Below are positions 37,324 to 52,014 of a stretch of 64,000 nt of DNA, in pieces. Position 1 is the stretch's first letter. Every line of letters starts with the position of its first letter. The stretch is from a virus. The notes beneath the pieces are model-generated. The model did not search any database and was not told the DNA's origin. It worked only from the letters and a program-made list of their open reading frames with translations. Both the position numbers and the translations under genes were made by a program. The DNA is taken from IMG/VR virus record IMGVR_UViG_3300035501_000778, positions 3,717 through 67,716 of that record. One strand, given 5' to 3'.

Positions 37324-37878
37324 CTAACTAATAATCTCGCGCTCTTTGAGATACTTCAATATCCGAATCAGATTGAACATCCCAAGAGGCTCATCGCTGC
37401 AATCCTGTGCCAACTCCGTAATAGCGGAATCATCCACATCCCCTCGCAGCCATTTATTCACGATGTCGGTGTACTCATCCTTCATCGCCTTTTCCTCGTC
37501 CTTGTCGTATGCCTCATTCAGAAACAAACTAATATCAATCCCAAGAATAAACTGCAAGATATAGCAGCACTCTCGTGTGGTCAAGTCTCTACGAAGCACA
37601 AGCCCCGTCACGTCATTAACTCGATTCACCGTCGTATGCACGATCCCGAGATTAAACATCTTCTTCCTCTTCCTCTTACAGGCAGCCTCCAAAACTTCTT
37701 CATCCGTTTTCATATCATGCCCATTCATATCATGCCCATTCATATCATGCCCATTCATATCATGCCCATTCATATCACGTCTATTCATATCACGTTCATT
37801 CATGTCGTACCCATTCAAGTCATTCCCATTTAAGTCATTCCCATTCATATCACGCTCATTTATGCCATACTCATTCAT
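37324..37878 (-). CDS. Hypothetical protein with 5-aa (xDMNG) tandem repeats
   Basis: 15-nt repeat CATATCATGCCCATT x4 plus degenerate copies. Confidence 0.65.
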   Translation of the reverse strand: MNEYGINERDMNGNDLNGNDLNGYDMNERDMNRRDMNGHDMNGHDMNGHDMNGHDMKTDEEVLEAACKRKRKKMFNLGIVHTTVNRVNDVTGLVLRRDLTTRECCYILQFILGIDISLFLNEAYDKDEEKAMKDEYTDIVNKWLRGDVDDSAITELAQDCSDEPLGMFNLIRILKYLKEREIIS

Positions 37879-38243
37879 ACTCCATTGCCATTTATATTGG
37901 TTACCATTTCTTTATGTACGTCATCCAACTTGCCACCGCCAGCGACGCTACTTCCAGAATGATATTCACTCAACAGTGCATCCTTAATAGGCTTACTAAG
38001 TGTACGGAATAAAATCCGATTCTTCTCCGGAATATCCTCGTCACCGATGCTGCAAAACAAGACATACCCAATAGGCACGCCCATCGCGTTGCATATCTTC
38101 TTTAGTGTAGCTTTACTCGGCATACTCTTATCGGTCTCGATATTGCACAGCGCGTTCGCAGAGATACTGCTCCTTACGGCCACCTCTCTCTGCGACAGCC
38201 CAATCTCTCGCCGGCAATTCCTAATAGCATTTCCAAGTTCCAT
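37875..38243 (-). CDS. XRE-family HTH regulator
   Basis: LGNAIRNCRREIGLSQREVA...NIETDKSMPS...KKICNAMGV. Confidence 0.9.
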   Translation of the reverse strand: MELGNAIRNCRREIGLSQREVAVRSSISANALCNIETDKSMPSKATLKKICNAMGVPIGYVLFCSIGDEDIPEKNRILFRTLSKPIKDALLSEYHSGSSVAGGGKLDDVHKEMVTNINGNGV

Positions 38244-38610
38244 AATTCAATCTTTTATCAAGTTAATGTTTAAGTCCTCCAATTTGTTCATCCGCAATTT
38301 GTTTAATACGTGTATTCCAAACAATAACGACGCAGGATCACTTGTATAAAGCCAGTCTGTAAACCACGGTATTCCTTCCAATAGATTTCATTCCGGCTTA
38401 AAATAATATACATAGGTATGAATACGGATAACAATGCAAAGATACTATATTTAATAATAATGTAGTTACAAGAATGTGCAAAATAATACTAAAAGAGATG
38501 TACATTAAGTAATCCTATTTAAATCTTAAAATATTAAAAAAAAGCGCGGAAAATATTGATACATCAAATATGTTTTATATCTTTGCACCATAATTGTAAA
38601 ATAATAAAAT

Positions 38611-39090
38611 ATGGAAAAGAATGTATATGAAGTTATTCCGATATTAAAGGAGTTGCTCGTGACCAAGTATTTTTCGCAAACGCTTGTTGGATTATCTTCA
38701 ACTTGGTTTGATAACAAGTGTAATTTATGCTTTAAATACGGATTAAACGAGGGTGTTAACGAAGTTGATATAGAACTTATTAATAAAGCCCTTGCACAAC
38801 TTGCGGTTAATATTGAGCAGTTGAAAGTGCAAGTTCAAGAAAATATGAAGGATATGGATTATCAAAACGGCATTTCTGAAAAGATCCGTGACTTGGCCAA
38901 GATGATAAACCTTCCTTGCTTTATAAAGACATATACTTCTTTTTCTATTAATACTTTCAGAAGTAAGATAGGACATTTCCCTAATACAAACGGTGAGCCT
39001 CGTTTGTTTACCGAGAAAGACATACATAAATACAATAAAGGCATAGATGGTTTATATGTGTTTATTTCAAGTTTGAAGGTAAAACTGTAA
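38611..39090 (+). CDS. Low-GC protein, possibly tandem DUF5053-like HTH
   Basis: Divergent from XRE gene; GLSSTWFDNK and NGEPRLFTEKD segments; own TATCTTTG promoter. Confidence 0.55.
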   Translation: MEKNVYEVIPILKELLVTKYFSQTLVGLSSTWFDNKCNLCFKYGLNEGVNEVDIELINKALAQLAVNIEQLKVQVQENMKDMDYQNGISEKIRDLAKMINLPCFIKTYTSFSINTFRSKIGHFPNTNGEPRLFTEKDIHKYNKGIDGLYVFISSLKVKL

Positions 39091-39727
39091 TATATCAAGT
39101 TAAAGCGTGCGCAACGAACGTACGCTTTAACTTTTTTTTTGTCCATTCGTATCGAAAAGAATACTCTTCTTGATTAAATATTATTATAGTATAATATATT
39201 TCTTTATTGGTCACGCAAAGCGTGATTTTGATATTACTTTCTGTTTATCGGTAAAAAAAGTATATTCCACTTTTTACTACTTAATCCATTGAAATTGAAT
39301 ATTTCTTTAGTGGAATAAATTCCATTTTTGCGTTCCTGACCGCGCGCCGTGCTATGGGATCCTTGTGCCTGTGGTCGCGTACGCGCGTACCTTATATATG
39401 CGCGTACGCGCGATACGATAAATTTTGAGCGACGCAATAAAATTAACATATTTAACATGGTTCTCGCGGAGATGATAGGTAAAGAATTTTAACACGCATA
39501 AAGATGCGGAAAATATGCAGTTTTTCGATGGTTTTTCGTTTTTTTTGACAAATGAAAATTGCACAAAAAAGCAAAATTTGTGCAATTTGGAAAACTCCCT
39601 TAATATTGCAATAATGTACGCGCGCGAATGGATTAAGGTGTCGAAAAAAAAAACACTCTTAAACAGACTGAAAATCAATAAGTTAAGAAAAAAATCAAAA
39701 AAAAGCAGAAAAAAATCGACGAAAAAT

Positions 39728-39811
39728 TTTGTGCTTTCAGAAAAAGTCCATACCTTTGCAACGTCAACGATAAAGGATAGCTTCCTGGAAAGTAGTTGAG
39801 GTGTTCTTTGA
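39728..39811 (+). promoter_or_regulatory. Strong Bacteroidota promoter with boxA-like element
   Basis: TTTG 39728, TACCTTTG 39751, upstream A-tracts, GTTCTTTGA at 39803. Confidence 0.7.
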
Positions 39812-40416
39812 TATAGCAGGCGTGTAATTTCGCTTGCGAGTTTGAAATAATTCGAAAGGTGCGGATCTCAATCGTAATTGGCGCAAAAAACCAGAAAGGG
39901 CCTAAAAACCTCGGTTGTGGTACTAATTGAATTAAAGTAGGGCGAAATGTGACCCTTGTAAATAATTGTAGGCAGTTGTACACTTATATGGCTGTAATTC
40001 AATATCTTGTGCATTAATGGCTTCATGCGAATGACGTACATTTTGCCGTCGTCTTTGGTGATTTCAGGCGTGGAAAAACCTCTGGCGGCTTCTAAGGTAG
40101 ATATTGTGCTCATATCCAGAGGGATATGAGATAACTAAGGTAGTGACCCGATTCTGTGCAGGCGTGTATGGTTTTGCGTGTGGTGCTCCCTGAAACAATT
40201 AAGTTGCAAGTAAAATGTAGGTTTTTGCAGTCAAAAGGTATGTTATTCCTGGGCATTAGCTGTAGCGCACACGTGTGGCGACACGTGGAGTATCTTATAG
40301 CGACGTTTGTGCGTCGTTAAATAGGCTCTTAGGCACAAAGCGTCTATACTCTGCTCCGATAGGGGTGGAGTATAGGGTAGCAATATTGCTAAAAAACAAT
40401 TAAAATCTATAAGATT
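39765..40416 (+). ncRNA. Candidate large structured RNA or leader (~650 nt)
   Basis: No convincing + strand ORF; several hairpins with G-U pairs. Confidence 0.5.
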
Positions 40417-41052
40417 ATGGCTAAAAAATTTGAAATCTCTTGTGTTGAAGCATCTAAGTCTATTAACGAAGAAATGCGCTCTTTTGAGGGTGCTGTCAAG
40501 GTACTCGTTATGTTCGCTCGTACTAATAAACAGGTCCAATTATTCCTTATTGAGCGTGGTATCACTGACCTCAACTTCTTCCGCGAAAAAGACGCCAGTG
40601 GCGCGCTCGCTTGCAAGGCTAAGCTCTATCAGTTCAGCAAGCTGGCTACATTCGTCAATGACCGCGGCGAATCCTATCAGGAGCTGTGCAGTGTTAGCAA
40701 GGATGGCACTATCAAGCAAGCTCGTTGGACCATTCGTAAGGTTCTGGATGCTGTACACAAGCGCTATAAAGGTGAATTTTCCAACCAGGAAAAGGGTGTA
40801 CGTGCCATGTTAGCAAAAGAGCAGTCTATCAATGAGGCTGCCCCCGCGGTCAAGGCTGCCCCCGCGGTCAAGGCTGCTATTGCAACGAAGCCTAAAAAGG
40901 TGAAAATTACTTTGACCGATGATGAAAAGATTGAAGCTTTGGCTTCTTGGATGACCAGAACAGGTAAGACCGAGGTTAGCAAGGTCCAACTGGAGTGTAT
41001 CTTGAACGCGGCTTTGGCAAGAAAAGCAAAGCAGTTGAAAGAGGCTTGTTAA
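40417..41052 (+). CDS. Hypothetical early protein
   Basis: 211 aa, A-rich start context. Confidence 0.7.
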   Translation: MAKKFEISCVEASKSINEEMRSFEGAVKVLVMFARTNKQVQLFLIERGITDLNFFREKDASGALACKAKLYQFSKLATFVNDRGESYQELCSVSKDGTIKQARWTIRKVLDAVHKRYKGEFSNQEKGVRAMLAKEQSINEAAPAVKAAPAVKAAIATKPKKVKITLTDDEKIEALASWMTRTGKTEVSKVQLECILNAALARKAKQLKEAC

Positions 41053-41109
41053 TTGGTTATTGTGTGTTACGAATCGAATTAGAAATAATTAAATTTAGGA
41101 GGATTAAGA

Positions 41110-41598
41110 ATGAATTTATCAGAATTACTCGCAAGTGCAAAGGCTGTTGCTGCATCTAACAGCAAATTAGTATCTAACAAAAATAAGGCTATCCAATCAC
41201 AGCCCAAGACTGACTCGGTGAGAGAGCGCGCTGCTGCGCTGCTCCGCCAGTTTAACGCTATCGAATCTGCGCCTGTAATGACTATTTGCAAGGCGCAAGA
41301 AGTAAAGCCTACCGCAAAGAAGTCCAAAAAGACTTCCAAGACCACCAAGGCAAAGCGTTCAGTATCTCGTATCCCAGAGATACCCGAATCAATGGGCGAA
41401 TATTTGGACGTTCACGTATGTGATTATAGCGACAAGTCCTTTGTTGTGTATGGTGAAACAAAGCCTATCAAGAATGTGCTGAAGGCGCTCGGTGGTCGCT
41501 TTAATGCGTTCCTCCGTCCGAATAATAGCGAAACGTGTGTACCTGGCTGGGTATTCCCTATTAAATGTCGTGAAGCCGTAGAGGAAGCAATATCATAA
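41110..41598 (+). CDS. Basic protein with C-terminal DYSxK..GxTKPIK..GGRxN..GWVFP domain
   Basis: Domain shared with 44248..44910. Confidence 0.75.
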   Translation: MNLSELLASAKAVAASNSKLVSNKNKAIQSQPKTDSVRERAAALLRQFNAIESAPVMTICKAQEVKPTAKKSKKTSKTTKAKRSVSRIPEIPESMGEYLDVHVCDYSDKSFVVYGETKPIKNVLKALGGRFNAFLRPNNSETCVPGWVFPIKCREAVEEAIS

Positions 41599-41626
41599 AT
41601 TAATCATAAACAAGGAGGATAAAAAG

Positions 41627-41893
41627 ATGAAAGAAACGTATTTGGTCACTGTATCAAGTGTGATAATTCTGAATGGAGAGGTAATTAGTCTTAATAACGG
41701 CTTTGCAAAGGAGTACACTCCTAAGCCTGACTGGTGGATAGACCAGTTTGGCCAGACGTTGAAAGATGGTGGATACCACTATGTTGGAGAGAAAGAATCT
41801 GATAACTACAAGCAGGTTATTTACGCCGACGAAGATATGAAAGTGTACTTCCATATCGACGCTACACCATTGAGAATATTAACCCAAAAATAA
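41627..41893 (+). CDS. Hypothetical protein
   Basis: GGAGGAT upstream. Confidence 0.6.
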   Translation: MKETYLVTVSSVIILNGEVISLNNGFAKEYTPKPDWWIDQFGQTLKDGGYHYVGEKESDNYKQVIYADEDMKVYFHIDATPLRILTQK

Positions 41894-41906
41894 GGAGGAT
41901 AAAATC

Positions 41907-42242
41907 GTGAAAGATTATCTTATCATTGACCCGGCATTGTGCGCGATAGCGCGCAATCTGGGCAGCCACCTCTATGATGGTGGCAAGTATGCAGTCTATG
42001 CCCATACCCCACGTATCATGATGGTGACGGGTCTTATCTGTGGTCGTGCGATACGTATGTGCGTGGAACACGACTCCGTGCGTATCTATGGAGGCTATGG
42101 CGAGAGCCATACCCCTATGGGTGTAGCATTGTTGCATAAGGTGTACCGCAAGGTGCAGGACTATCTGAGCAGCAAGACGCTCGGATGGTCCGTATTGTTT
42201 AATCCGTTCGACCTCGATATGTATATCGAGCAGAGCAAGTAA
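41907..42242 (+). CDS. Hypothetical protein
   Basis: GGAGGAT upstream, GTG start. Confidence 0.55.
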   Translation: MKDYLIIDPALCAIARNLGSHLYDGGKYAVYAHTPRIMMVTGLICGRAIRMCVEHDSVRIYGGYGESHTPMGVALLHKVYRKVQDYLSSKTLGWSVLFNPFDLDMYIEQSK

Positions 42243-42265
42243 TTAACCCTATAAATTAGAGTAAG

Positions 42266-42631
42266 ATGATTAGAAAAATTGAGAGAGAGGCTTTCTGTAA
42301 TTTTCTGGCCTCTCGCAAGCAGGAAGTGCGTATATATATCGCGTGTGAGGCTATGAACTGGATGTATAATAATTGCGACGACGACGTCTGCTATGACTAT
42401 AATCGCCGTACGGGTCTTGTGACTATGTACACCTGGAATGACGACGAATTTGATTGGGACGAATCCGTCTATACCAGAGATGAGTTCCTCGAAATGTTCG
42501 AGGATTCAGGATATATCGACGTCTTATATGACGCTACGGACATGACTTCCGAAGGCCTGTCACAAGTCTATCCTATCTTTGCGTCGGTATATCGTCGCTG
42601 GATGAAGAGTGAGTATAAAGAAATTGCATAA
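42266..42631 (+). CDS. Acidic hypothetical protein
   Basis: 121 aa. Confidence 0.65.
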   Translation: MIRKIEREAFCNFLASRKQEVRIYIACEAMNWMYNNCDDDVCYDYNRRTGLVTMYTWNDDEFDWDESVYTRDEFLEMFEDSGYIDVLYDATDMTSEGLSQVYPIFASVYRRWMKSEYKEIA

Positions 42632-42650
42632 TCAATAAAACCATATCAAG

Positions 42651-43016
42651 ATGAAAAATATCATCAAGCTGTTGGCGTGCGTATCCATGTTGGTATGCAC
42701 GTCTTGTACCTCTAACGAGGATCTGTATAATCTGGAGTGTAGAATCAATCATTGTCACGCTATTCACAAGCCGTGCAAGTTAGAAGAGCGTGACTTTCGC
42801 GAGGCCTATGCCGACCTTACCCCCAAGGAGAGAGCCGACTATAAGCGCTATCGCAAGGCTCAGGAGGTCAAGAAGGCAGCGCGCAGAGCAGCCATGCGTG
42901 AGGCGGACGGCATACTCAACGAGGGCCGTCCAGAGCGTAAGATGCCAGCGCAGGATACGCTCCAGTCTATCAAGCCTATGGCAGGCTTTCAGCTTGCTCA
43001 TTATAACGTAAAATAA
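42651..43016 (+). CDS. Probable lipoprotein
   Basis: MKNIIKLLACVSMLVCTSC lipobox-like. Confidence 0.6.
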   Translation: MKNIIKLLACVSMLVCTSCTSNEDLYNLECRINHCHAIHKPCKLEERDFREAYADLTPKERADYKRYRKAQEVKKAARRAAMREADGILNEGRPERKMPAQDTLQSIKPMAGFQLAHYNVK

Positions 43017-43025
43017 GATTTGGTT

Positions 43026-43871
43026 ATGGGTGTAAATATTAATCGTGGGAATTATGCCTTTCTTCACGGCTCAATACCTTACGAGGAATTAAAAAACTTC
43101 GAGCCGAAAGTTAAGCCAATCATCTTATTTAAGCAGTTTAAGTTACGACTGGATAAAGATGGAAACAACCTATCTCAAGGAATAGTATTCCCTTTATACG
43201 TAAGAACGTGTAATGAAAACTCGCATGGTTTACCCTCTGGATTGAAATTGGGAGTCTGGTACAAAAGTGGAGTAGGAGAGTGTTGGATTAACGTCAAGAA
43301 CGGAAGACTCTATACGAAGGGAAAAGGTTATTGCACAGACGGCAATAAGTTAGAGTATCTTGCTTATAGACCTGGGTGGCATTTGACAAACACCCCTTGG
43401 TCGAACCAAAGAGGTGCGGTGAGAGTAGCAAATGGCAATAAAGGAACCGGAAGTAATTTTATATATACTCGCTCATCTGAAGTATGGGGAGTCGTCGAGG
43501 CTTGTATAGATATAGATGCAACAGAGAAAGCTAAGTCGTTATCTACAAGCAAGAAGGACCAGTGTTTGCAAAGTTTAGGTGACAGTGAATTCTATATATA
43601 CAAGACTAACGAGAATGCAACCAAAGAGCAGATTTGGTATATCGTTGATAAGATTAGAGTCGTGAAAATACTTGACGATGATTCGGTCGACTCTATAAAC
43701 GATTCATTCTACGAAACACTATCTAAAGAAAGTGGAAGATGTATTGAGTCTGACCCATATCACTATAGTCGAATGAATAGTGATGGCATTCCATATTGGA
43801 AGATGCCGAGAGAGAACGGAGTTAGATATACTCAACAAGATTTAGTTCGTATGGGATATTGCCAGATGTAA
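43026..43871 (+). CDS. Low-GC hypothetical protein
   Basis: LAYRPGWHL motif; composition differs from neighbours. Confidence 0.7.
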   Translation: MGVNINRGNYAFLHGSIPYEELKNFEPKVKPIILFKQFKLRLDKDGNNLSQGIVFPLYVRTCNENSHGLPSGLKLGVWYKSGVGECWINVKNGRLYTKGKGYCTDGNKLEYLAYRPGWHLTNTPWSNQRGAVRVANGNKGTGSNFIYTRSSEVWGVVEACIDIDATEKAKSLSTSKKDQCLQSLGDSEFYIYKTNENATKEQIWYIVDKIRVVKILDDDSVDSINDSFYETLSKESGRCIESDPYHYSRMNSDGIPYWKMPRENGVRYTQQDLVRMGYCQM

Positions 43872-43931
43872 TACCCATCAGTCAATAACAATTTAATCGG
43901 CTGACCTATCGGCCGTTAAACGGGGAAAGAT

Positions 43932-44207
43932 ATGACAGAAAAAATTGACGAATGGTATGACCGCGTACTTCCGGTCATGCAGCGCAATGTGCGCATTATT
44001 GTAGCAATCACGCGTATTATCCTGTTCTCGTGTTACATGAGCATGGGTCTGTACTACGCCTATCAGATAGCCTATTGCTATCAGAGTTTCATCACCTATA
44101 TAGCATCCGTATGTTTGATGCTGGCCACCTATCGTTTCGGAAAGATAGGTGCGCGAGGCCTGGCCTATGGTCTTGGCCGAGAGATAATCAGAGGCTTTAG
44201 AGATTAA
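43932..44207 (+). CDS. Small membrane protein
   Basis: Two hydrophobic segments. Confidence 0.55.
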   Translation: MTEKIDEWYDRVLPVMQRNVRIIVAITRIILFSCYMSMGLYYAYQIAYCYQSFITYIASVCLMLATYRFGKIGARGLAYGLGREIIRGFRD

Positions 44208-44247
44208 TTTATTACACAATATAAACCCTAAAATTGGAGGATAAAAA

Positions 44248-44910
44248 ATGAACATCAAGAATCAGTTTGCAGGAATCCTGTCGGCCAACAAGGCCACAAC
44301 CGTCAACGCAGCCCCCGCTGCAAGTGTTAAACCCAATCAAGTCACCCCCGTGCCCATCGTAGACGCGGAGGTAGAAGTCATCGAGGATGACGATGACCCT
44401 ATTCCCACACCGCAGCCACAGCCTGCGCCTACCCCACAGCCGTCGGCAGAGTCCGTCAAGGTATCATCCTTGCGTGCCCGATTGGCAGCCAAGCGCCAGT
44501 CTATCGCCGATATGCAGGCAGCGCACGCAAAGGAGCAGATAGCCACTACACCTATCACACCCAAGCCACAGCCAGCAGCCCCCAAGGCGACTGCCCAGCC
44601 CGCTCCCAAGGCAGCGCCCAAGCCAGCCTATAAGCCACGTAAGGCAGCACCCACTACACGTGCTAAGGTAGCACCCACCCCAGTCAATCTCCCAGACCCG
44701 TCAACTATCAAGTTGAAGTTGGTCGATTACAGCGAGAAGTGCATCGCAGTATTTGGTGACACCAAGCCTATCAAGGACGTCATCAAGCAAGCAGGCGGAC
44801 GCTATAATCCCTCCCTCCATCCAGGTGGATGCGAAGAGAAGGTCGAAGGCTGGGTCTTCCCCAGCAAGGATAGAGAGAAAGTCGAATCAGCATTAGCCAA
44901 GTACCTCTAA
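44248..44910 (+). CDS. Pro/Ala-rich protein with same C-terminal domain as 41110..41598
   Basis: VDYSEKCIAVFGDTKPIKDVIKQAGGRYN...GWVFP. Confidence 0.75.
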   Translation: MNIKNQFAGILSANKATTVNAAPAASVKPNQVTPVPIVDAEVEVIEDDDDPIPTPQPQPAPTPQPSAESVKVSSLRARLAAKRQSIADMQAAHAKEQIATTPITPKPQPAAPKATAQPAPKAAPKPAYKPRKAAPTTRAKVAPTPVNLPDPSTIKLKLVDYSEKCIAVFGDTKPIKDVIKQAGGRYNPSLHPGGCEEKVEGWVFPSKDREKVESALAKYL

Positions 44911-45018
44911 TCCCCAACCCACAATCATCCCGACGATACCCCCCCTATCTATCGTCGGGATGTTTTGTAATCCCCAATCAAATAAAATCAAACAACAACC
45001 CGATAAATATAAATCATT

Positions 45019-45933
45019 ATGCAGACAAAAGAATATATCGACGCAACCGTAGGAATCAACGAAACAGGCAATCAACTCTTCGACTTCGACACCAAGAAAG
45101 TACAGACGCTCACTATCGACCAGTTGGAGCGCACCACACGAGAGCATGACGCTCTCGGCAACCCTATCATGGGTATCTATCACTGCGACCTCCTTCGCCA
45201 GCTCGAAGAGATGGCCCACCAAAGCGGACTCTCTATCGAGTACGACGAAATCTTCGCTGCCAATGGAGGCTCCGCAGGCAGTCCTGGAGTAGCCGTACTC
45301 CCCAACGTGGAGGAACGATACGGCGAGCGAGCCATCGAGGCTCACATCCTCCGCAGAGTCTATGCGAATATGGTGATCCGCGATTTCGATACGCAGGAAC
45401 TCACCACCCAGTTGGCGGTATCCTTCCACCAAGAGGGTATTCAGATAGGCTTCGGCAACCAGGTCCGTATCTGCCACAACCTGACGATGCTTAGCCCGAC
45501 GCTGTCCGCCTCCACCTTCGGCAAGGACCGCGTGGATATACCTCGCCTCTTGCAGGTCGTCCGCACGTGGCTCGACAATGCCGGCTATCATATCCAGGCG
45601 GACCGCGTGCAGATTGAGCAGATGAAGAATATCGCTGTCACCTATCATCAGAGTCTGATGATGCTGGGTGCCCTCTCCGTGCAGCGAGTCCGCCACGACA
45701 CTCGCAACCGCATTATCCGTGCGTCAGAGGACTATCCGCTGAACAGCGCACAGATTAATCGCCTCACGGAATCGTTGGAGGTCATCTACAATCAGAATGG
45801 CTACGACGCTATCTCCCTGTGGGCGTGGTACAATGCAGCCACCGAGTTGCACAAGGCAGGACGCACCGATATACCTGCTATCATGCCACAGAATTTAGCT
45901 CTCGCCTCATTCATTAACGGCATGATAGGCTAA
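45019..45933 (+). CDS. DUF932-like protein
   Basis: GIQIGFGNQVRICHNL and SLWAWYNAATE motifs. Confidence 0.65.
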   Translation: MQTKEYIDATVGINETGNQLFDFDTKKVQTLTIDQLERTTREHDALGNPIMGIYHCDLLRQLEEMAHQSGLSIEYDEIFAANGGSAGSPGVAVLPNVEERYGERAIEAHILRRVYANMVIRDFDTQELTTQLAVSFHQEGIQIGFGNQVRICHNLTMLSPTLSASTFGKDRVDIPRLLQVVRTWLDNAGYHIQADRVQIEQMKNIAVTYHQSLMMLGALSVQRVRHDTRNRIIRASEDYPLNSAQINRLTESLEVIYNQNGYDAISLWAWYNAATELHKAGRTDIPAIMPQNLALASFINGMIG

Positions 45934-45979
45934 TCCCGAAAAGGTTCGTCGCAAGGGGGTTCGATTCCCCCTTCGGGAA
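45934..45979 (+). other. tRNA-like minihelix (acceptor stem plus T arm)
   Basis: TCCCGAA/TTCGGGA and GGGGG-TTCGATT-CCCCC. Confidence 0.55.
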
Positions 45980-46007
45980 CAAGTTAAACCATTAAACATT
46001 AAATCAA

Positions 46008-48932
46008 ATGGATAAAATCATCTATCAGAAATTAGCGGAGAAAGCCAAGGAAGTCTTCGCGTTAGACATGATAGTGCCGGAGGGTTCCTACTCCACCATG
46101 AAGCTCTGCACCATGATGGCCCCAGCCGTCAAGGCCTATCTCAAGGAGTGCATCAAATTCCGTGAGCGTACGGACTACACGATGGAGCCTGTCACTATCC
46201 CTTACATGAAAGCCGAAGCGTTCACCGAGGTGGTCACTATCGACTTCTGGTATTCACCCTCGATGGACGAAGAGGTTGCCCACTACGACGACAATCCCGA
46301 ACACGTTCACTTCAAGTGTTCCATCCTTAAAGGTCGTATCTTCGAGAAGTTGCGCAAGTTTGAAACCAAGGTGCCTACCGAGTGTCATATGCGTTTCTCG
46401 GCCTCCAAATATCGTTCCCCTTCCGAGTTGCCCTTGTTGTCATACAAGTTCTATCCCCAGTCCTATCATAAGGACGTCGCCTATGCCATTAAGAATTGCG
46501 ACCCGGAATATCGCACGGCTGATAAAATCTTCCTCGATGCGTGTCGCCACAATGTGGTAGCCACCGACGGCCACGTGATGACCGTCCAGACTATCGTAGT
46601 CACGGACTTGCTGAAGGTCGACGACAAGGCAAATCTCTTAATCCCGAAAGATACATGGCTGGAAATGTGTAAGCATGGAGGCTGCCACAATGTGGATATC
46701 TATCAAGATAAGGGAGGCAACCACTTCACCGCCGTTATCACCGACGATACGGACCACGTCTACACCTTCGAGAATCTCTACATCTTCCCTGCCTATCAGA
46801 GCGTCCTCTGTCGGGAAATCAATCTCGATGCCGTCATGACTTTCACCCTCGAATCCATGAGGTCACTCCGCTCCGCCGTAAGGTCTTATTGCAAGATCTA
46901 TGGCAAGAACGTCAGTTTCCAGCCAGGCATCGAATTGCTTACCAAGGGAGGCAGCGATGCAGTCACGGCTATCTTCTACGATATGGAAACGGAGTCCGAG
47001 GTAAGCCGAGTGAATTTGCAATTAGAAAGCCCTGCCTTCGACACCCTTGCCCCGCTCTTCAAGTCAGAGTACCTGGTCGATATGCCCGATTGGGATGGTC
47101 GAATCTATGTGCCCGGCAGGGATAAGCCAGTGTATTTCGGCCTCAAATATGGAGGCTTACACTATCTGATGCCACGCTACAGAGAGTCCTATCAGCCCGA
47201 GAGAGAGTGGCAGATAAGCGTCGGCAAGATGAGTCCGTTCACCGACGCCTTCGAGATACACGTCAACGACCAATCCCAATTTACCGACTATGAGCGAGAG
47301 CAAGAATCCGCCTTCCTTGAATGGAAAGGCAAGCCCTCACCCAAAGTCACCCCCGTAAAATCAACAGAAACAACAACCACTAAAACCCCTTCAAAGGAGA
47401 AGGATAATATCACGATTATGAGTACATCAAACAACGGAGCTTATACGCTCGAAAACATCGAAGCAGGCAAGTATGCAGTATCAGTAGCGTCCACCGACGA
47501 GATGGACCGCCTCACTATCCGTAGCATCGCTCACTATATCAGAGAGCAGGCGGTTATCCACGGCAACGACCCCGACTTCAAACTCCAGTCCCAGTTCATC
47601 ACCGCTTTCGGCAAGCGTGTGATTGCGGACAAGAAACCTATCCCCCTCACCGAGGAAGAACTGACCTACTACATGACCGCAGCCCTCGTAGAGGATTGCG
47701 GAGTGGAGGACATCCCCGACTATACCGAAGACGAGTTGAACGGCCCTGTGTATCGAGTGCCGCAGCCTGCCCCCACACCGCAGCCTGCCCCCGCTCCCAA
47801 GCCAGAGCAACCCAAGCCAGAGCAACCCAAGCAGGAGCAACCCAAGCAGGAGCAACCCAAGCAACCCACCCTTACCCAGCGTGAGCGCCCCAAGTCCTTC
47901 GCTCTCACCGGCACCTTCCCTATCAAGCGTGCCCTGGTCCAAGAGTTGATGGAGGCCAAGGGTTGGAAATATTACCAGAATATAACTCTCGAAACGGGAG
48001 TGCTCTTCAATGCTGCCGACGACCGCGCATCATCCAAGTGTACGAGAGCCTTGGAGTACCGCGTCCCTATCCTTGGGGTGGGGGATATGTATCCCATCAT
48101 CGGGGTGTCAGACTCTACACCCGAATCATGGATGGCAGCCTATCAAGCAGCCTGCGCACCGCAACCCAAGCAGGAGCAACCCAAGCAAGAGCAGCCCAAG
48201 CAGGAGCAGCCCAAGCAAGAGCAGCCCAAACAAGAACAGCCCAAACAAGAGCAGCCCAAGCAGGAGGCTGTCAAGCCAGCTCGCAAGCCGTCCGATGGAA
48301 CTATCCGTCGTATGTATGATAATCTCACCCTCACCTACCAGGATATGGTGATGCTCTTCCGTGATGTCATTCCAGGATACTATGGTGCCATCTTCGAGGA
48401 TGCTTATCTCTTGGGTCAGTACCGCCACGTCCCCACGATTGAGGACTCCGGTTTCCCGATGGTCTGCTTCAAGACCGATGAGTTGGAGGACACTATCAGC
48501 ACGCTGATTAATAACGGCAAGCGTATTGTCTTCCTCGATTGGAACGACTTTGCTCCCGCCGAGCCTGCCGATGCCGAGCAACCCACCGCCGTAGAGCAGG
48601 AGGCAGCACCCTCCACCCCTGCCGAGGTCGCCGAGGATGAGCCTATCAAGTTGACTCGCGCCACCCTTCGTTATCAAGACCGACTGATTAAGGCGGTCCG
48701 TATCTCGATGGGCGATGACGATGCCGCCCTCACCGTCTGCGGTCTGTCATGGGTCAACGTCCTTCTCGACGACAACAGCGCCCCCAGCAATGAGCGAGCA
48801 AGAGAGGTATTCAATAGCATCGACGCCTTCATCTCCGATTCGCTGATAGATGCCGAGGTGATGGATGAATCCGCTATCGTCCTCGCCACCGATGAGTTCC
48901 TCAATATCGTAGAGCAGCGTCGCGCTGAATAA
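46008..48932 (+). CDS. Multidomain protein: beta-clamp-like, BRCT-like, MutS domain I-like
   Basis: VATDGH..FPAYQSVL; FALTGTFPIKR..SSKCTRA..VPIL; MVMLFR..YY..FEDA..PMVCF..LINNGKRIV; PKQEQ linkers. Confidence 0.65.
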   Translation: MDKIIYQKLAEKAKEVFALDMIVPEGSYSTMKLCTMMAPAVKAYLKECIKFRERTDYTMEPVTIPYMKAEAFTEVVTIDFWYSPSMDEEVAHYDDNPEHVHFKCSILKGRIFEKLRKFETKVPTECHMRFSASKYRSPSELPLLSYKFYPQSYHKDVAYAIKNCDPEYRTADKIFLDACRHNVVATDGHVMTVQTIVVTDLLKVDDKANLLIPKDTWLEMCKHGGCHNVDIYQDKGGNHFTAVITDDTDHVYTFENLYIFPAYQSVLCREINLDAVMTFTLESMRSLRSAVRSYCKIYGKNVSFQPGIELLTKGGSDAVTAIFYDMETESEVSRVNLQLESPAFDTLAPLFKSEYLVDMPDWDGRIYVPGRDKPVYFGLKYGGLHYLMPRYRESYQPEREWQISVGKMSPFTDAFEIHVNDQSQFTDYEREQESAFLEWKGKPSPKVTPVKSTETTTTKTPSKEKDNITIMSTSNNGAYTLENIEAGKYAVSVASTDEMDRLTIRSIAHYIREQAVIHGNDPDFKLQSQFITAFGKRVIADKKPIPLTEEELTYYMTAALVEDCGVEDIPDYTEDELNGPVYRVPQPAPTPQPAPAPKPEQPKPEQPKQEQPKQEQPKQPTLTQRERPKSFALTGTFPIKRALVQELMEAKGWKYYQNITLETGVLFNAADDRASSKCTRALEYRVPILGVGDMYPIIGVSDSTPESWMAAYQAACAPQPKQEQPKQEQPKQEQPKQEQPKQEQPKQEQPKQEAVKPARKPSDGTIRRMYDNLTLTYQDMVMLFRDVIPGYYGAIFEDAYLLGQYRHVPTIEDSGFPMVCFKTDELEDTISTLINNGKRIVFLDWNDFAPAEPADAEQPTAVEQEAAPSTPAEVAEDEPIKLTRATLRYQDRLIKAVRISMGDDDAALTVCGLSWVNVLLDDNSAPSNERAREVFNSIDAFISDSLIDAEVMDESAIVLATDEFLNIVEQRRAE

Positions 48933-48971
48933 ATAAAATCAAACAACAAACCACTTAAAAAGTAGGATAAA

Positions 48972-49388
48972 ATGGAAACAGCAATCAAAACTTATCTCGA
49001 CAATTTCGCAGCCACCGATGCGGTGTTTGCTGCCAAGTATGCCAACCCTTCCAAGTCGCTCAACGGGTGCTTGGATTACGTCACCAGTCAGGCACAGCGC
49101 CGTGCCTTGAAACAGAAAGTCAACGGTATCTATATCTCCGACCAGGAGGTATATGGCTGGGCCGTCCACTACTACGACGAACCCGACGTCCAGCCTGCTG
49201 CCGAGGGTGCCGATGACGACGACCTTCCCGAGTTGGTATCCGTCCCCAAGAAAAAGAAATCCGCCCCTGCTGCCAAGCCCAACGCGTTTGCGCTGGCAGC
49301 AAAGGCGCAGGCGGACAAGGCCCATGCCGCCCAGTCCGTAGAGAGTGAATCCTATCAGTTGTCTATCGAAGATATTATGCGTCCATGA
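48972..49388 (+). CDS. PcfK-like protein (family that includes AcrIIA9)
   Basis: IKTYLD..D.VFAAKY.NP.KSL..CLDY, SDQEVYGWAVHYYDE. Confidence 0.85.
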   Translation: METAIKTYLDNFAATDAVFAAKYANPSKSLNGCLDYVTSQAQRRALKQKVNGIYISDQEVYGWAVHYYDEPDVQPAAEGADDDDLPELVSVPKKKKSAPAAKPNAFALAAKAQADKAHAAQSVESESYQLSIEDIMRP

Positions 49389-50782
49389 GAAAGCCCACGA
49401 TGCGTATGAAGGCAACCGACGGGATGTCGCAGTTGCCTTCCCTCACCAAGGAACAGGAAGCCTATCTGTGGAATCAGTTCCACTTCCATGGTATCAATTA
49501 TTCGAATGGATCCTGCGAGTGTTTGGCTTGCGGTCACAAGTGGACGCCCTCCGAGCAGGGTGCCGAGCAGTGTTGTCCCCATTGTGGGACCACACTCTCT
49601 ATGAGCAAGAGCCGTGCCGCCCACTTCAGCGAAACCTTCTACATGGCAGTCCTTACCACGTATGAGGGTTCCCAAGTCCTCCGCTATATCGAGGCGCAGC
49701 GATGGAGTCACCGCTATCTCCAGGAGTGGAACAACGTCGAAGGCAGATGGGTCAAGAAGCCGACCCTTCATACATGGCACAACTACAGAGAGGTCGTGCA
49801 GATATGGCTCGATGAGCAAGGCAATGAGGCGGTAGCCACGCTGCCTGGAACATCCTTCTGGAATAGCACCTTCATGTGGAATGGAAAGATGCGTGTCCGT
49901 GGCACGGTCAAGCAGGTCCAGGCCTCCCAAGTCTATGGTCAGCGTATCTTCCCGCACGTCGTGTGCCCCGATGCTCAAGTACTCCCTATCTTTGAGCGCA
50001 ATGGCTACACTCTCGAGTGTGATGACGTCGACCCTCGCACCTTCATGCTGGCCGTGTTGACCCCCTTCGGTGAGATGCTGGCCAAGACCAAGCGTTTCGA
50101 TTTTCTCTCGTACTACGGCACGCAATGTGCCCGAATGAATACGGACAACATTCGATACCACGCTATCCGCATCGCTATTCGTCACCACTATTACCCGACG
50201 GATATACATAAGTGGTTCAACTATCTCGACAATCTCCGTCACTTCGAGATGGACGACCATAACCCCAAGTATGTCTGCCCTGCCGACCTCGATGCAGCCA
50301 ACAGGGAGTTGAACGAGCGTAGAGTCCGAGAGTATCAGCGCGAGGCTGCCCGCCGTGAGCAAATCCGTATCGAGGCGAAGGCCCGAAAATTGGACGCATC
50401 TTCTCCCGAGCAGAAGCGCTACGAGGAATCCAAGTCGCGTTTCTTCCCTTTGGATATAGAAGATGGCGAGGGCCTTGTTATCAAGCCTCTCCGCACTATC
50501 CAGGAGTTCTACGACGAAGGTGAGTCCATGCACCACTGCGTGTTCAACTGCGAATATTACAAGAGCAAAAGTTCGCTCATCCTCTCCGCTCGTTATAATG
50601 GAGAGCGAGCCGAGACCATAGAGTTCTCGTTGACAACGATGAAAATCCTCCAGTCGCGAGCCAAGTTCAACGGCGTATCTCCCTACCACGAGCGTATCAT
50701 CGCCCTCATGCAGAAGAATCTCGACCGCATCCAGCAACTCAAGGACGCCGCACCCGCTGCCGGCAACACCAAAACAGCGTAA
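49385..50782 (+). CDS. PcfJ-like protein
   Basis: CLACGH, CPHCG, EFYDEGESMHHCV, ETIE..L.T.KILQSR; coupled to PcfK. Confidence 0.85.
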   Translation: MRKPTMRMKATDGMSQLPSLTKEQEAYLWNQFHFHGINYSNGSCECLACGHKWTPSEQGAEQCCPHCGTTLSMSKSRAAHFSETFYMAVLTTYEGSQVLRYIEAQRWSHRYLQEWNNVEGRWVKKPTLHTWHNYREVVQIWLDEQGNEAVATLPGTSFWNSTFMWNGKMRVRGTVKQVQASQVYGQRIFPHVVCPDAQVLPIFERNGYTLECDDVDPRTFMLAVLTPFGEMLAKTKRFDFLSYYGTQCARMNTDNIRYHAIRIAIRHHYYPTDIHKWFNYLDNLRHFEMDDHNPKYVCPADLDAANRELNERRVREYQREAARREQIRIEAKARKLDASSPEQKRYEESKSRFFPLDIEDGEGLVIKPLRTIQEFYDEGESMHHCVFNCEYYKSKSSLILSARYNGERAETIEFSLTTMKILQSRAKFNGVSPYHERIIALMQKNLDRIQQLKDAAPAAGNTKTA

Positions 50783-50813
50783 ACAGATAAACCCTTAAAA
50801 CCCAGTTATCATT

Positions 50814-51479
50814 ATGAAGATGAATCAAATCTCCCTTAGCGAACTGCGTATCATTCTCCGTTCGCTCCATGTGTATCAGCTTGCCCGCCTGGCAGCCGAA
50901 GTGTTCAACGCAGCCTACGTGACTGTATATAGCAAGTCACGCTATCGTTATCAGCCCAACACCAACCTCTACGAGTTCTACGACGAGGTATCCGACACCT
51001 ACCGCTCCTTCACCGAGCATGATATGGTCAGTGAGTTCTGGTCCAATGGCTGGATGATCGAACTGTATGAGTCAGGCAACGATGATAATTATGCGGGCTA
51101 CGACTATGCCTTCCGCCTTGCCTACCTGGAGTATCGCTCTCTCCGCCTCGTCCGTATGCGTAGATGCTTCCGCCACCTCTCCCTCGACGATAAGTGCGAG
51201 GTGGCGATGGAGGCCTTCAACTACGCCCACAACGATGGCTCATGGCCGCTCTACTTCATCCTCGACCATGGCAGTGGTCTCTACCTGGAGCGCGACAGCA
51301 AGCAGGGCCACCGCGTCACTCGCGCCCTCTTCCCCAAAGAGCTGGCCGAAGAGTTCTTCTCCGACGATTGGGATGGCGAGATGATTAGCAACATCGAGTC
51401 TATGGGCCTCGAGGAATACCCTATCTTCAAGGATAAGTTCTTGTCAGATGTACAGAAAATATATACTCAAACCGCGTAA
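50814..51479 (+). CDS. Hypothetical protein
   Basis: 221 aa. Confidence 0.65.
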   Translation: MKMNQISLSELRIILRSLHVYQLARLAAEVFNAAYVTVYSKSRYRYQPNTNLYEFYDEVSDTYRSFTEHDMVSEFWSNGWMIELYESGNDDNYAGYDYAFRLAYLEYRSLRLVRMRRCFRHLSLDDKCEVAMEAFNYAHNDGSWPLYFILDHGSGLYLERDSKQGHRVTRALFPKELAEEFFSDDWDGEMISNIESMGLEEYPIFKDKFLSDVQKIYTQTA

Positions 51480-51504
51480 AAGCAAACCAATTAAGAATAA
51501 AGAT

Positions 51505-51780
51505 ATGACGTACAAGATTTCCTATTCGTTGAGATTCGATGCTGAAGGATATGCCTACAAGCAGAATGTGAATGTAGCGATGACTAAAGGTGAGTACCAA
51601 GACTTTCTGAAAAGATTGAAGTCTTACGGAACGACACGCAATCATAAGCCGATGCGTCCGAACGAAACAATCTTCACCTGCTTGGTCCAGCGCGTTCAGA
51701 TTATGCATTGCTTGAACGCAAACAAGGATAAACGATATATCCGCTGGTATAATACGACTTTCCACTTCAATGTCAAGTGA
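51505..51780 (+). CDS. Hypothetical protein
   Basis: 91 aa. Confidence 0.55.
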   Translation: MTYKISYSLRFDAEGYAYKQNVNVAMTKGEYQDFLKRLKSYGTTRNHKPMRPNETIFTCLVQRVQIMHCLNANKDKRYIRWYNTTFHFNVK

Positions 51781-51805
51781 TAATAATAAAAGCAAAACAA
51801 ACCGC

Positions 51806-51973: not shown

Positions 51974-52014
51974 AGTCAATCCACTGTTTTAATCATTTAA
52001 ACACCTAAGTAATT

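What the first reader, a model, noticed from the sequence alone, without database searches (positions are those of the whole stretch)
39728..40416. rRNA-operon-style promoter, boxA and a ~650-nt hairpin-rich non-coding leader
Consensus promoter with upstream A-tracts, then GTTCTTTGA (39803) resembling rrn boxA, then ~600 nt with no + strand ORF and many stems: GCAGGCG/CGCTTGC (~39816-39837), CTCATATCC/GGATATGAG (40109-40130), CACGTGT/ACACGTG (40270-40287), TAGCGACGT/GCGTCGTTA (40298-40319) and a 14-bp stem with three G-U pairs (40344-40375). G-U pairs favour a + strand RNA. It heads ~17 kb of co-oriented genes. Could be an undescribed large phage ncRNA (size class of ROOL/GOLLD) or an RNA-based processive antitermination element.
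Basis: partly seen in the sequence, partly recalled or inferred. Interest (0 to 1): 0.8.

Follow-up and report, generated by a model that had tools for sequence, protein, structure and literature searches.

The report
Ribosomal-RNA-style phage leader ending in ribozyme
A gut phage of Bacteroidales bacteria starts its early genes with a copy of the host's ribosomal-RNA promoter and anti-termination signal, then about 0.6 kb of hairpin-rich untranslated RNA, then a self-cutting pistol ribozyme just before the first gene, which suggests a testable job for this ribozyme class.

Summary
39728-39760 is a Bacteroidota-type promoter (TTTG / TACCTTTGCA). GTTCTTTGA at 39803 is not a loose resemblance. 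It is the commonest 9-mer in the 400 nt upstream of 16S rRNA in Bacteroidales (77 of 104 leaders), and it lies 52 nt after the -7 box, the modal rrn spacing.

The stretch has no credible ORF. It is the most hairpin-dense tile of the window.

Rfam RF02679 scores 35.2 bits against a cut-off of 34.5. A perfect 6-bp pseudoknot and a GU junction support it. The predicted cut, G40377/U40378, lies 39 nt before the ATG at 40417.

Contigs from four metatranscriptome runs cover 39905-40270 but not the ribozyme or the genes.

Best reading: an rrn-mimicking, boxA-guarded early transcription unit. Its roughly 613-nt leader is cut off by the ribozyme and outlasts the message. Whether that RNA acts on its own is open. 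I found no homologue and so have no covariation. ROOL and GOLLD models do not match.

Earlier notes of this scan describe boxA-plus-giant-leader mimics in coliphages and pistol-capped RNAs in other phages, on other DNA.

The parts
39686..39727 (+). A-rich tract upstream of the promoter (UP-like; rrn promoters of Bacteroidales also have an A-run just before the -33 TTTG)
   Evidence: Sequence; rrn promoter consensus built from 108 promoter stretches
39728..39760 (+). Bacteroidota sigma-A promoter: -33 TTTG (39728-39731) and extended -7 box TACCTTTGCA (39751-39760). The start site is inferred at about 39763-39767.
   Evidence: Pattern search. It has the best match to the rrn promoter consensus among all 45 TAnnTTTG boxes of the window: 30 of 46 consensus positions, next best 27, rrn promoters' own median 34. 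A 21-nt identity with one Prevotella rrn promoter, L171. The start site was not mapped.
39803..39811 (+). boxA-like element GTTCTTTGA, identical to the core of the Bacteroidales rrn leader boxA
   Evidence: Commonest 9-mer upstream of 16S in 77 of 104 leaders. It lies 52 nt after the -7 box, the modal rrn spacing (8 of 75 pairs; 30 of 75 lie within 49-56 nt). The related G-N-TCTTTGA is in 21 of 26 16S-23S spacers.
39816..39837 (+). 7-bp hairpin with an 8-nt loop, 5 nt after boxA (same position as boxB in a lambda nut site; role unknown)
   Evidence: Pair probability 0.99
39838..40297 (+). Body of the untranslated, hairpin-rich leader, including the 9-bp hairpin 40109-40130 and the 7-bp hairpin 40270-40287
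39905..40270 (.). Stretch covered by contigs at least 99% identical in all four RNA runs laid. In X1 cover extends back to 39595. Contigs carry no strand.
   Evidence: table 8. All four runs read T for C at 40028.
40301..40381 (+). Pistol self-cleaving ribozyme. P1 is 40301-40305/40312-40316. The pseudoknot pairs 40306-40311 with 40334-40339. The linker is 40317-40324. P2 is 40325-40327/40379-40381. P3 is 40343-40357/40362-40376.
   Evidence: Rfam RF02679, 35.2 bits against a gathering score of 34.5. Pseudoknot 6 of 6, P1, P3 and junction checked against 75 other viral pistols.
40377..40378 (+). Predicted cleavage site, between G40377 and U40378. This is the 2-nt junction between P3 and P2.
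   Evidence: GT follows P3 in 60 of 73 viral pistols scored, the window among them. The site is defined in Harris 2015 (PMC4604425, passages). Inferred here, not shown.
40378..40416 (+). 39-nt A-rich leader that cleavage would leave on the mRNA
   Evidence: Sequence. The median Bacteroides 5' UTR is 32 nt (PMC7366714).
40417..41052 (+). First gene of the operon (211 aa, no detectable relatives)

Best explanation
The stretch is a three-part early transcription module of a Bacteroidales phage or phage-plasmid.

(1) A promoter and a boxA element copy the host's ribosomal-RNA operon leader. They should give strong transcription by host RNA polymerase. By recruiting NusB/NusE and the other Nus factors, they should also make the polymerase resistant to Rho termination while it crosses untranslated RNA.

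(2) About 530 nt of hairpin-rich untranslated RNA follows.

(3) A pistol ribozyme then cuts the nascent transcript between G40377 and U40378. The cut should release an RNA of about 613 nt that carries the 5' triphosphate and boxA and ends in a 2',3'-cyclic phosphate. It should leave the polycistronic early mRNA with a 5'-OH and a 39-nt A-rich leader, which is the length Bacteroides ribosomes normally use.

The released leader RNA outlasts the message, which is why it alone is seen in RNA libraries.

Shown here: the sequence elements, their match to host rrn leaders, the ribozyme's architecture, and the presence of the leader but not the genes in RNA-library contigs.

Inferred: the start site, Nus-factor binding and antitermination, self-cleavage, and the fates of the two products.
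For: Promoter and boxA:
- GTTCTTTGA is in 77 of 104 rrn leaders and TACCTTTGC in 74 of 104; they are the two commonest 9-mers there.
- The window's spacing of 52 nt is the rrn mode.
- The window's leader promoter fits the rrn consensus better than any of its other 44 -7 boxes.
- G-N-TCTTTGA also sits in 21 of 26 16S-23S spacers. boxA of E. coli rrn operons shows the same leader-plus-spacer duplication (established knowledge).
- The whole pattern (-33, exact -7 box, 32-60 nt, exact boxA) occurs in only 10 stretches of the 2.9 million viral contigs.
- The core fits the gamma-proteobacterial boxA consensus GYTCTTTAANA at 10 of 11 positions (consensus from PMC5725501, passages).
- T7 has a working boxA behind its early host-polymerase promoters (PMC3709561, introduction passage).

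No other promoter:
- There is no further plus-strand TAnnTTTG box between 39759 and 42574. Elsewhere in the window such boxes sit 20-40 nt before start codons.

Pistol:
- Searches give the score above the gathering cut-off.
- The pseudoknot, which the covariance model does not score, is 6 of 6 Watson-Crick.
- P3 has 15 bp, followed by GU and then P2.
- 54 of 70 other viral pistols with a measurable value lie within 30 nt after an ORF, and many lie shortly before the next ATG. Cutting between transcription units is therefore the class's usual setting.

Parallels:
- In two other phage lineages an rrn-type promoter and boxA are followed by a leader and a tRNA-like minihelix about 25-35 nt before the first ATG (L325; L326/L388/L389; L284 is similar).
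- The window's own operon has such a minihelix 28 nt before the ATG at 46008.

RNA:
- In 4 of 4 runs laid, contigs at least 99% identical cover 39905-40270. None covers 40278-42000.
Against: - No experiment or raw-read data shows the start site, the cut or the strand. The RNA runs are kept as unstranded contigs at depth 2-6, and DNA carry-over cannot be excluded.
- The contigs stop at 40252-40270, which is 107-125 nt before the predicted cut and before the ribozyme begins. The stable species may therefore end elsewhere.
- In X1 contigs also cover 39595-39769, upstream of the predicted start.
- P2 of the ribozyme has only 3 pairs plus an extra C. The Rfam score is only 0.7 bits above the cut-off, and the model mis-aligned the long P3.
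- The flanks of boxA differ from the rrn consensus.
- TACCTTTG is not specific to rrn: 7 of the window's 45 -7 boxes have it.
- boxA function has not been shown in any Bacteroidota in the papers I could search.
- There are no convincing plus-strand intrinsic terminators in 40400-60399 for antitermination to overcome: 21 sites on both strands against 17.7 expected.
- None of the 117 other pistol loci (1.04 Mb) has a promoter-plus-boxA pair, so the combination is so far a single case.
Confidence: 0.6

Rival explanations
1. The roughly 0.6-kb RNA is itself the product: a new large structured phage RNA, made at rRNA-like levels and given its 3' end by the ribozyme. It acts in trans, for example as a decoy, a scaffold or an anti-defence RNA. 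Expression of the downstream genes is secondary.
For: - Only this stretch is seen in four RNA libraries.
- It is the most hairpin-dense tile of the window.
- Its size of about 613 nt is in the ROOL class (581 nt on average; PMC5737381, passages).
- A ribozyme separates it from the message.
- The only variant seen, C40028T, would turn a predicted C-G pair with G40253 into U-G.
- In L388 the same promoter-boxA module has a leader of only about 60 nt, so 530 nt is more than the module needs.
Against: - No homologue was found in phage, plasmid, viral-contig, metagenome or fetched-record searches. There is therefore no covariation.
- There is no Rfam match apart from the pistol.
- Sub-domain z-scores are -0.9 to -2.3.
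- A stable cut-off leader would give the same RNA picture.
- One single-sided change is not covariation.
Confidence: 0.25
2. The promoter is simply a strong host-type promoter, and the boxA match has no antitermination role. It could be chance, or part of a leader hairpin. The long leader would be a regulatory 5' UTR or a spacer.
For: - The bare 9-mer is at chance frequency in the window.
- The boxA flanks differ from rrn.
- The fold pairs 39802-39810 with 39771-39779, with a mean pair probability of 0.55.
- No plus-strand terminators were found downstream.
Against: The joint pattern is extremely rare: 10 stretches in all viral contigs, of which I judged about 3 to be chance-like. The spacing equals the rrn mode. 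Untranslated RNA of 600 nt is a natural Rho target (established knowledge).
Confidence: 0.1
3. The pistol is an inactive relic, or the RNA signal is an artefact. The artefact could be DNA carry-over, a minus-strand transcript or a hidden small gene. In that case no processing takes place.
For: - P2 is weak and the Rfam score is marginal.
- The contigs are unstranded, shallow and end before the ribozyme.
- Minus-strand ORFs of 102 and 81 codons exist.
Against: - All conserved blocks of the Rfam consensus are present.
- The pseudoknot is perfect.
- 32 of 73 viral pistols also have 3 P2 pairs by the same count.
- The minus-strand ORFs match no family, and no minus-strand -7 box lies nearby.
- Four runs cover the same 350 nt and nothing in the 1.7 kb after it.
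Confidence: 0.05

Closest known systems
Pistol self-cleaving ribozyme class (Rfam RF02679; Weinberg 2015, recalled; Harris 2015, PMC4604425, passages read)
   Same: P1, P2 and P3; a pseudoknot between the P1 loop and the P2-P3 junction; a GU junction; the conserved blocks; a phage setting. A Bacteroidota example, Alistipes putredinis, was validated in vitro.
   Different: It stands at the end of a 0.6-kb untranslated RNA behind an rrn-type promoter and boxA, not directly after a gene as in 54 of 70 other viral examples. P3 is unusually long at 15 bp, the second longest of 73. P2 has 3 pairs and an extra C.
rrn leader boxA and the rRNA antitermination complex of E. coli (NusB/NusE/NusA/NusG/SuhB/S4), and the boxA behind the early promoters of phage T7
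   Same: It is promoter-proximal. The core is identical to the host's own rrn element. It stands ahead of long untranslated RNA. A phage borrows a host signal, as in T7 (PMC3709561; PMC12360218 and PMC5725501, passages).
   Different: The host phylum is different, and I found no bench work on boxA there. The core has G where E. coli has A at position 8. No boxB or boxC counterparts were identified. A ribozyme later severs the boxA-bearing RNA from the transcript.
Hammerhead 'HHphage' of haloviruses HF1/HF2, and clustered hammerheads in prophages (Perreault 2011, PMC3088659, passages)
   Same: A self-cleaving ribozyme lies a few nucleotides to tens of nucleotides before the first ORF of an early polycistronic transcript. 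In HF1/HF2 the mapped 5' end lay within 3 nt of the cut.
   Different: The ribozyme class and the host domain differ. No rrn-type signals and no long leader are described there.
ROOL and GOLLD large phage-associated RNAs (Weinberg 2017, PMC5737381, passages)
   Same: Size class, phage setting, animal-gut origin, many stems.
   Different: Neither covariance model matches at E<=10. No relatives are known. There is no tRNA neighbour.
Earlier notes of this scan (AI notes, unchecked by me): rrn mimic with boxA and a 0.8-0.9-kb leader RNA in phiEco32-like coliphages (e1-137988, e1-156314); pistol-capped large RNAs in other phages (e1-5938885, e1-5961378)
   Same: A host rrn-type promoter and boxA ahead of a large folded untranslated early RNA, and a pistol at the end of a large phage RNA.
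   Different: In the coliphage cases no cut site separates the fold from the next gene; a later check named this as their weakness. Here a ribozyme does so, and both features occur together in a Bacteroidales phage.

Membership tests
Pistol ribozyme (RF02679) | Covariance-model score at or above Rfam's gathering score | tested here: met
   35.2 bits against 34.5. E is 0.0095 for the window and 1.3e-4 for 901 nt. The margin is small, and the model aligned a shortened P3.
Pistol ribozyme (RF02679) | [quoted passage not shown] | tested here: met
   P1 has 5 bp (40301-40305/40312-40316). Loop 40306-40311 is fully complementary to 40334-40339, 6 of 6 pairs. The Rfam model does not score this pairing. 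Of the 73 viral pistols tallied, 63 have 6 pairs and 10 have 5.
Pistol ribozyme (RF02679) | P3 hairpin followed by a junction of exactly two nucleotides (usually GU) that holds the cleavage site | tested here: met
   P3 has 15 bp with a 4-nt loop, followed by G40377-U40378. GT is found in 60 of 73. The definition is from PMC4604425.
Pistol ribozyme (RF02679) | P2 helix closing the ribozyme | tested here: inconclusive
   There are only 3 pairs (40325-40327/40379-40381), with an extra C40328. By the same count, 32 of 73 have 3 pairs and 29 of 73 have 4.
Pistol ribozyme (RF02679) | Highly conserved nucleotides of the consensus | tested here: met
   All upper-case blocks of the Rfam consensus are matched. 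The generic core pattern is unique in the window, with 0 matches in 100 shuffles. I could not see the figure that lists the ten nucleotides of Harris 2015.
Pistol ribozyme (RF02679) | Self-cleavage by internal phosphoester transfer | not testable with these tools
   This needs an in-vitro transcription assay.
rrn-type boxA (Nus-factor antitermination site) | Sequence identical or nearly identical to the conserved element of the host's rrn leader | tested here: met
   The exact core is in 77 of 104 Bacteroidales rrn leaders, where it is the commonest 9-mer. The flanks differ.
rrn-type boxA (Nus-factor antitermination site) | The host element occurs both in the leader and in the 16S-23S spacer, as boxA does | tested here: met
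   G-N-TCTTTGA is in 21 of 26 spacers. The exact leader form is in 2 of 26.
rrn-type boxA (Nus-factor antitermination site) | Promoter-proximal position on the transcript | tested here: met
   It lies 52 nt after the -7 box, the mode of 75 rrn promoter-boxA pairs.
rrn-type boxA (Nus-factor antitermination site) | Binds NusB/NusE and confers resistance to Rho | not testable with these tools
   Inferred from E. coli and T7.
Lambda-type nut site (boxA + boxB + N protein) | boxB hairpin after boxA, bound by a phage N-like protein | tested here: inconclusive
   A 7-bp hairpin begins 5 nt after boxA. No N-like protein is recognisable; the first genes match no family.
ROOL (RF03087) / GOLLD (RF02032) | Match to the family covariance model | tested here: not met
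   No match at E<=10. The ROOL control search matched in no control genome, so that search is weak evidence.
Bacteroidota sigma-A promoter | -33 TTTG and -7 TAnnTTTG at the right spacing | tested here: met
   The consensus is from PMC7366714.

The most novel reading that the evidence does not exclude
The roughly 613-nt RNA between the rrn-type start and the pistol cut is a new class of large phage non-coding RNA. The phage makes it with the host's ribosomal-RNA transcription machinery (rrn promoter, boxA and Nus factors). The ribozyme gives it a defined 3' end with a cyclic phosphate. It then acts in trans in the infected or carrier cell. This would also give the pistol class its first natural job: 3'-end formation of a stable RNA, combined with 5'-end formation of an mRNA.
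Probability: 0.25. Interest if true: 0.8.

Novelty: new variant of a known kind. Interest (0 to 1): 0.6.

Why it matters
Pistol ribozymes have been known since 2015, and the papers I read name no natural role for them. Here one stands at a defined boundary between an rrn-style untranslated RNA and the first start codon, and public RNA data hint that the two sides have different fates. That makes the ribozyme's role directly testable.

The comparison also yields a consensus boxA for Bacteroidales rrn operons: GTTCTTTGA in leaders and G-A-TCTTTGA in spacers. My literature searches did not find this described. It also shows that phages of this important gut phylum copy it.

Earlier notes of this scan on coliphages raised the question of whether boxA-guarded giant leaders are RNAs in their own right. 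This case adds a cut site between the leader and the gene.

Tried and rejected
Homologue hunts for the leader all failed:
- blastn (distant mode) against phages and against plasmids.
- The first gene's protein in viral contigs and in the 5.8-billion protein set.
- The 283-aa operon protein in viral contigs. This gave one jumbo-phage locus, L002, at 57% identity. It has no pistol, and only the promoter is alike.
- The same protein in genome contigs.
- The PcfJ-like protein in viral contigs.
- A lineage-specific pistol pattern in viral and in metagenome contigs.
- The 40109-40130 hairpin pattern in metagenome contigs. It gave 32 stretches, all chance by blastn of their flanks.
- blastn of the leader against the pistol loci and against 40 whole viral records (two 22-36-nt chance matches).

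Other negative results:
- Rfam at E<=10 on 901 nt gave only the pistol and two chance rows.
- ROOL and GOLLD gave no match.
- ARAGORN found only the tRNA-Met at 28870.
- Alternative genetic codes opened no plus-strand frame.
- The ESM Atlas look-up of the first protein gave only viral hypothetical clusters.

Points on which I gave up a reading or drew no conclusion:
- The long-range helix 40008-40045/40232-40269 of the minimum-energy fold is not claimed, because that domain's z-score is -1.25.
- The sigma-70 promoter scan is not informative for this phylum.
- Parts of the window without RNA contigs (38000-38648, 38899-39594, 40278-42000) are reported only as lack of cover. I did not try to read RNA ends from the contig ends.
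Nothing is concluded from them.
- The supplementary files of the papers were not opened. Those of Weinberg 2015/2017 and Ryan 2020 may hold pistol contexts or Bacteroides rrn leader annotations that bear on the novelty claim.
Full report
SETTING

The window is 64 kb of a 67.7-kb IMG/VR virus record with an estimated completeness of 62%. The flagged stretch lies in a regulatory region.
- An HTH_3 repressor-like gene runs leftward (37875-38243).
- A DUF5053 gene runs rightward (38611-39090). It ends at a strong terminator-like hairpin of 15 bp with a T-run (39097-39133).
- An AT-rich tract with CGCG palindromes comes next, followed by the flagged stretch.
- Plus-strand ORFs then run from 40417 to the end of the window.
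- Most of those proteins match no family. The first gene (211 aa) has no relatives in the searches made.

THE OBSERVATION

- The promoter is of the Bacteroidota type, not sigma-70. TTTG is at 39728 and TACCTTTG at 39751. The pattern occurs 4 times in the window against 0.78 expected. The consensus is from Ryan 2020 (PMC7366714, passages).
- The longest plus-strand ORF between 39764 and 40416 has 54 codons and a GTG start. Recoding TAG or TGA opens no long plus-strand frame. None of the small ORFs on either strand matches a PHROG or Pfam family.
- All five stems appear in the partition-function fold with pair probabilities of 0.97-1.00.
- The leader has 13 local hairpins of at least 7 bp against 5.0 +/- 2.15 in dinucleotide shuffles (0 of 300 reach 13). 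It still has 10 against 4.5 (2 of 300) once the ribozyme is removed.
- None of 119 tiles of equal size across the window reaches 10.
- The plus strand folds 56 kcal/mol better than the minus strand.
- Against this, the energy z-scores of the sub-domains upstream of the ribozyme are ordinary, at -0.9 to -2.3.

THE PROMOTER AND boxA

Alone, GTTCTTTGA means little. The window holds 2 exact copies, and near-matches are at chance level.

I therefore fetched Bacteroidales rrn operons by scanning genome contigs for a 16S primer site. This gave 120 loci, mostly Prevotella, Segatella, Bacteroides and Phocaeicola, plus a few contigs with other titles that I did not remove. The results were as follows.
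- In the 400 nt before the 16S 5' end (104 usable stretches, all different), GTTCTTTGA is the single commonest 9-mer (77 of 104). TACCTTTGC, the -7 box, is next (74 of 104).
- The distance from the -7 box to the element is 52 nt in the window. Among 75 rrn pairs, 52 nt is the mode (8 cases), and 30 pairs lie within 49-56 nt.
- One Prevotella rrn promoter shares 21 consecutive bases with the window's promoter.
- Scored against an rrn promoter consensus, the window's leader promoter is the best of all 45 TAnnTTTG boxes in the window. It matches 30 of 46 positions; the next best matches 27, and the rrn promoters' own median is 34.
- The related G-N-TCTTTGA is also present in 21 of 26 16S-23S spacers. 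boxA shows this leader-plus-spacer pattern in E. coli rrn operons (established knowledge).
- The core differs at one of 11 positions from the gamma-proteobacterial consensus GYTCTTTAANA (PMC5725501).
- The complete pattern is found in only 10 stretches of all viral contigs.

The host is inferred to be a member of the Bacteroidales.

Two caveats apply. The boxA flanks are not rrn-like. TACCTTTG itself is shared by 7 of the window's 45 -7 boxes.

THE RIBOZYME

Rfam places a pistol ribozyme at 40301-40370, with 35.2 bits against a gathering score of 34.5. The model shortened P3. Read by hand against 75 other viral pistols that I collected with a generic core pattern, the structure is as follows.
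- P1 is 40301-40305/40312-40316.
- The loop 40306-40311 pairs perfectly (6 of 6) with 40334-40339. This is the class-defining pseudoknot, and the model does not score it.
- The conserved linker follows P1.
- The junction is the two nucleotides G40377-U40378.
- P2 is 40325-40327/40379-40381.

GU follows P3 in 60 of 73 pistols scored. P2 with 3 pairs is as common (32 of 73) as P2 with 4 pairs (29 of 73). The defining features are taken from Harris 2015 (PMC4604425, passages), which also records an active pistol from Alistipes, a member of the same phylum.

Cleavage would leave 39 nt before the ATG at 40417. The median Bacteroides 5' UTR is 32 nt, and translation there depends on A-rich leaders rather than Shine-Dalgarno pairing (PMC7366714).

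No other plus-strand -7 box lies between 39759 and 42574. The first genes therefore appear to depend on the promoter at 39728.

RNA DATA

Six gut metatranscriptome runs hold part of 39500-40700. I laid four of them on 38000-42000. Their contigs, at least 99% identical, cover the following.
- X1: 39595-40252, in four overlapping pieces, and also 38649-38898.
- X2: 39926-40252.
- X3: 39905-40093 and 40117-40267.
- X4: 40000-40270.

Nothing lies on 40278-42000. All four runs read T for C at 40028. In the predicted fold that base pairs with G40253, so the change keeps a wobble pair; this is one single-sided change and no proof.

Several limits apply. These are unstranded contigs at depth 2-6. The runs were chosen for holding this stretch. 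DNA carry-over is possible. The contigs end 107-125 nt short of the predicted cut, and X1 also covers DNA upstream of the predicted start.

I take from this only that the leader, and not the adjacent genes, is represented in four RNA libraries. That fits a leader RNA that outlasts the message.

CONTEXT IN OTHER PHAGES

Most viral pistols sit directly after an ORF (54 of 70 with a measurable value lie within 30 nt), and many sit shortly before the next start. The class's usual place is therefore a boundary between units of a transcript. Here the upstream unit is non-coding.

None of the 117 pistol loci has a promoter-boxA pair.

Conversely, the few phage contigs with the rrn-type promoter and boxA (L325; L326/L388/L389; L284 similar) follow it with a leader of about 60 to 700 nt. 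A tRNA-like acceptor/T-arm minihelix then sits about 25-35 nt before the first ATG. L325 even carries a second, spacer-type boxA.

These phages are not related to the window's phage at the protein level in the loci held. The window's own operon has such a minihelix 28 nt before the ATG at 46008.

The recurring design is: rrn-type start, boxA, untranslated leader, an RNA-cutting signal, a short A-rich leader, then the first gene. In this phage the cutting signal is a ribozyme.

MECHANISM

Shown: the elements and their similarity to host signals.

Inferred:
- Host RNA polymerase starts near 39765.
- boxA, at about +40, recruits NusB/NusE and the other Nus factors, as in E. coli rrn operons and behind T7's early promoters (PMC12360218, PMC5725501, PMC3709561).
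- This protects transcription of 600 nt of untranslated RNA from Rho.
- The pistol then cuts. It releases a leader of about 613 nt and an mRNA with a 5'-OH.

I found no convincing plus-strand intrinsic terminators in the next 20 kb. Any antitermination would therefore act against Rho rather than against hairpin terminators.

The hairpin 5 nt after boxA (39816-39837) stands where lambda has boxB, but no N-like protein is recognisable.

WHAT REMAINS OPEN

It is open whether the 530 nt between boxA and the ribozyme have a function of their own.
- For a function: its length is far beyond what the L388 module needs, its hairpin density is high, and it is present in RNA libraries.
- Against: no homologue turned up in any search, there is no Rfam family, and the folding energy is ordinary.

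COMPARISON AND NOVELTY

Each part is a known kind: the pistol; rrn-type boxA borrowed by a phage, as in T7; and a ribozyme just before the first early ORF, as with the hammerhead of haloviruses HF1/HF2 (Perreault 2011, PMC3088659).

The combination is new to me, and so is the setting in Bacteroidales. My searches of the held literature found no description of boxA in Bacteroides rrn leaders or in their phages.

Earlier notes of this scan report boxA-guarded giant leaders in phiEco32-like coliphages and pistol-capped large RNAs in other phages. These are AI notes that I did not verify. A later check of the coliphage cases named the lack of a cut site between fold and gene as their weakness, and this locus has one.

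I rate it a new variant of a known kind, with interest 0.6.

Noticed in passing
L157-L276 (Bacteroidales rrn loci): A consensus boxA for Bacteroidales rrn operons emerges. AAGAAAGA-GTTCTTTGA-AAGATTTAC is in 77 of 104 leaders, and G-A-TCTTTGA-CATATTG is in most 16S-23S spacers (G-N-TCTTTGA in 21 of 26). A second conserved leader block, AAGTAGTACAAGAAGC, lies about 30 nt further on. My literature searches found no description of these.
   Followed up: partly
window 45934-45979: A tRNA-like minihelix with a 7-bp acceptor stem and a T arm whose loop reads TTCGATT. It starts right after a stop codon and ends 28 nt before the ATG at 46008. This is the same distance class as the pistol cut before 40417, and a likely RNase P/Z processing signal.
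   Followed up: partly
L325:5100-5850, L284:10230-10710, L388:2610-2770: Other phage contigs carry an rrn-type promoter and boxA, a leader of about 60-700 nt, and a tRNA-like minihelix about 25-35 nt before the first ATG. L325 and L284 share a GC-rich hairpin with the loop motif GGCTGCAACCAG just after boxA. L325 also has a second, spacer-type boxA and an AT-rich stretch with CGCG palindromes like the window's 39340-39630.
   Followed up: partly
window 39097-39133: A strong terminator-like hairpin (15 bp, then a T-run) right after the DUF5053 gene. A second one is at 39209-39227. They insulate the leader's promoter from upstream transcription.
   Followed up: no
window 38649-38898: Run X1 also has an RNA-library contig inside the DUF5053 gene (38611-39090), and one over 39595-39769, upstream of the predicted start. 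It is unexplained whether this reflects another promoter, read-through or DNA.
   Followed up: no
window 40028: All four RNA runs read T where the window has C. The runs' phage population is otherwise identical to the window over about 670 nt.
   Followed up: partly
window 39896-39904 / 40322-40330: The fold predicts a 9-bp pairing (probability 0.84) between the leader and the pistol's linker and P2 strand. This would compete with the ribozyme fold and could delay or regulate cleavage.
   Followed up: no
L002 (273-kb viral record G001): The only relative found for any operon protein is a 57%-identical copy of the 283-aa protein (43020-43871, phrog_30118) in a jumbo-phage-sized contig. That record also has promoter stretches like 39735-39764.
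   Followed up: partly
window 39515-39799: A 94-codon ATG ORF runs through the A-tracts and the promoter. Its lysine-rich product looks like an artefact of the A-runs (best PHROG E-value 0.06).
   Followed up: partly
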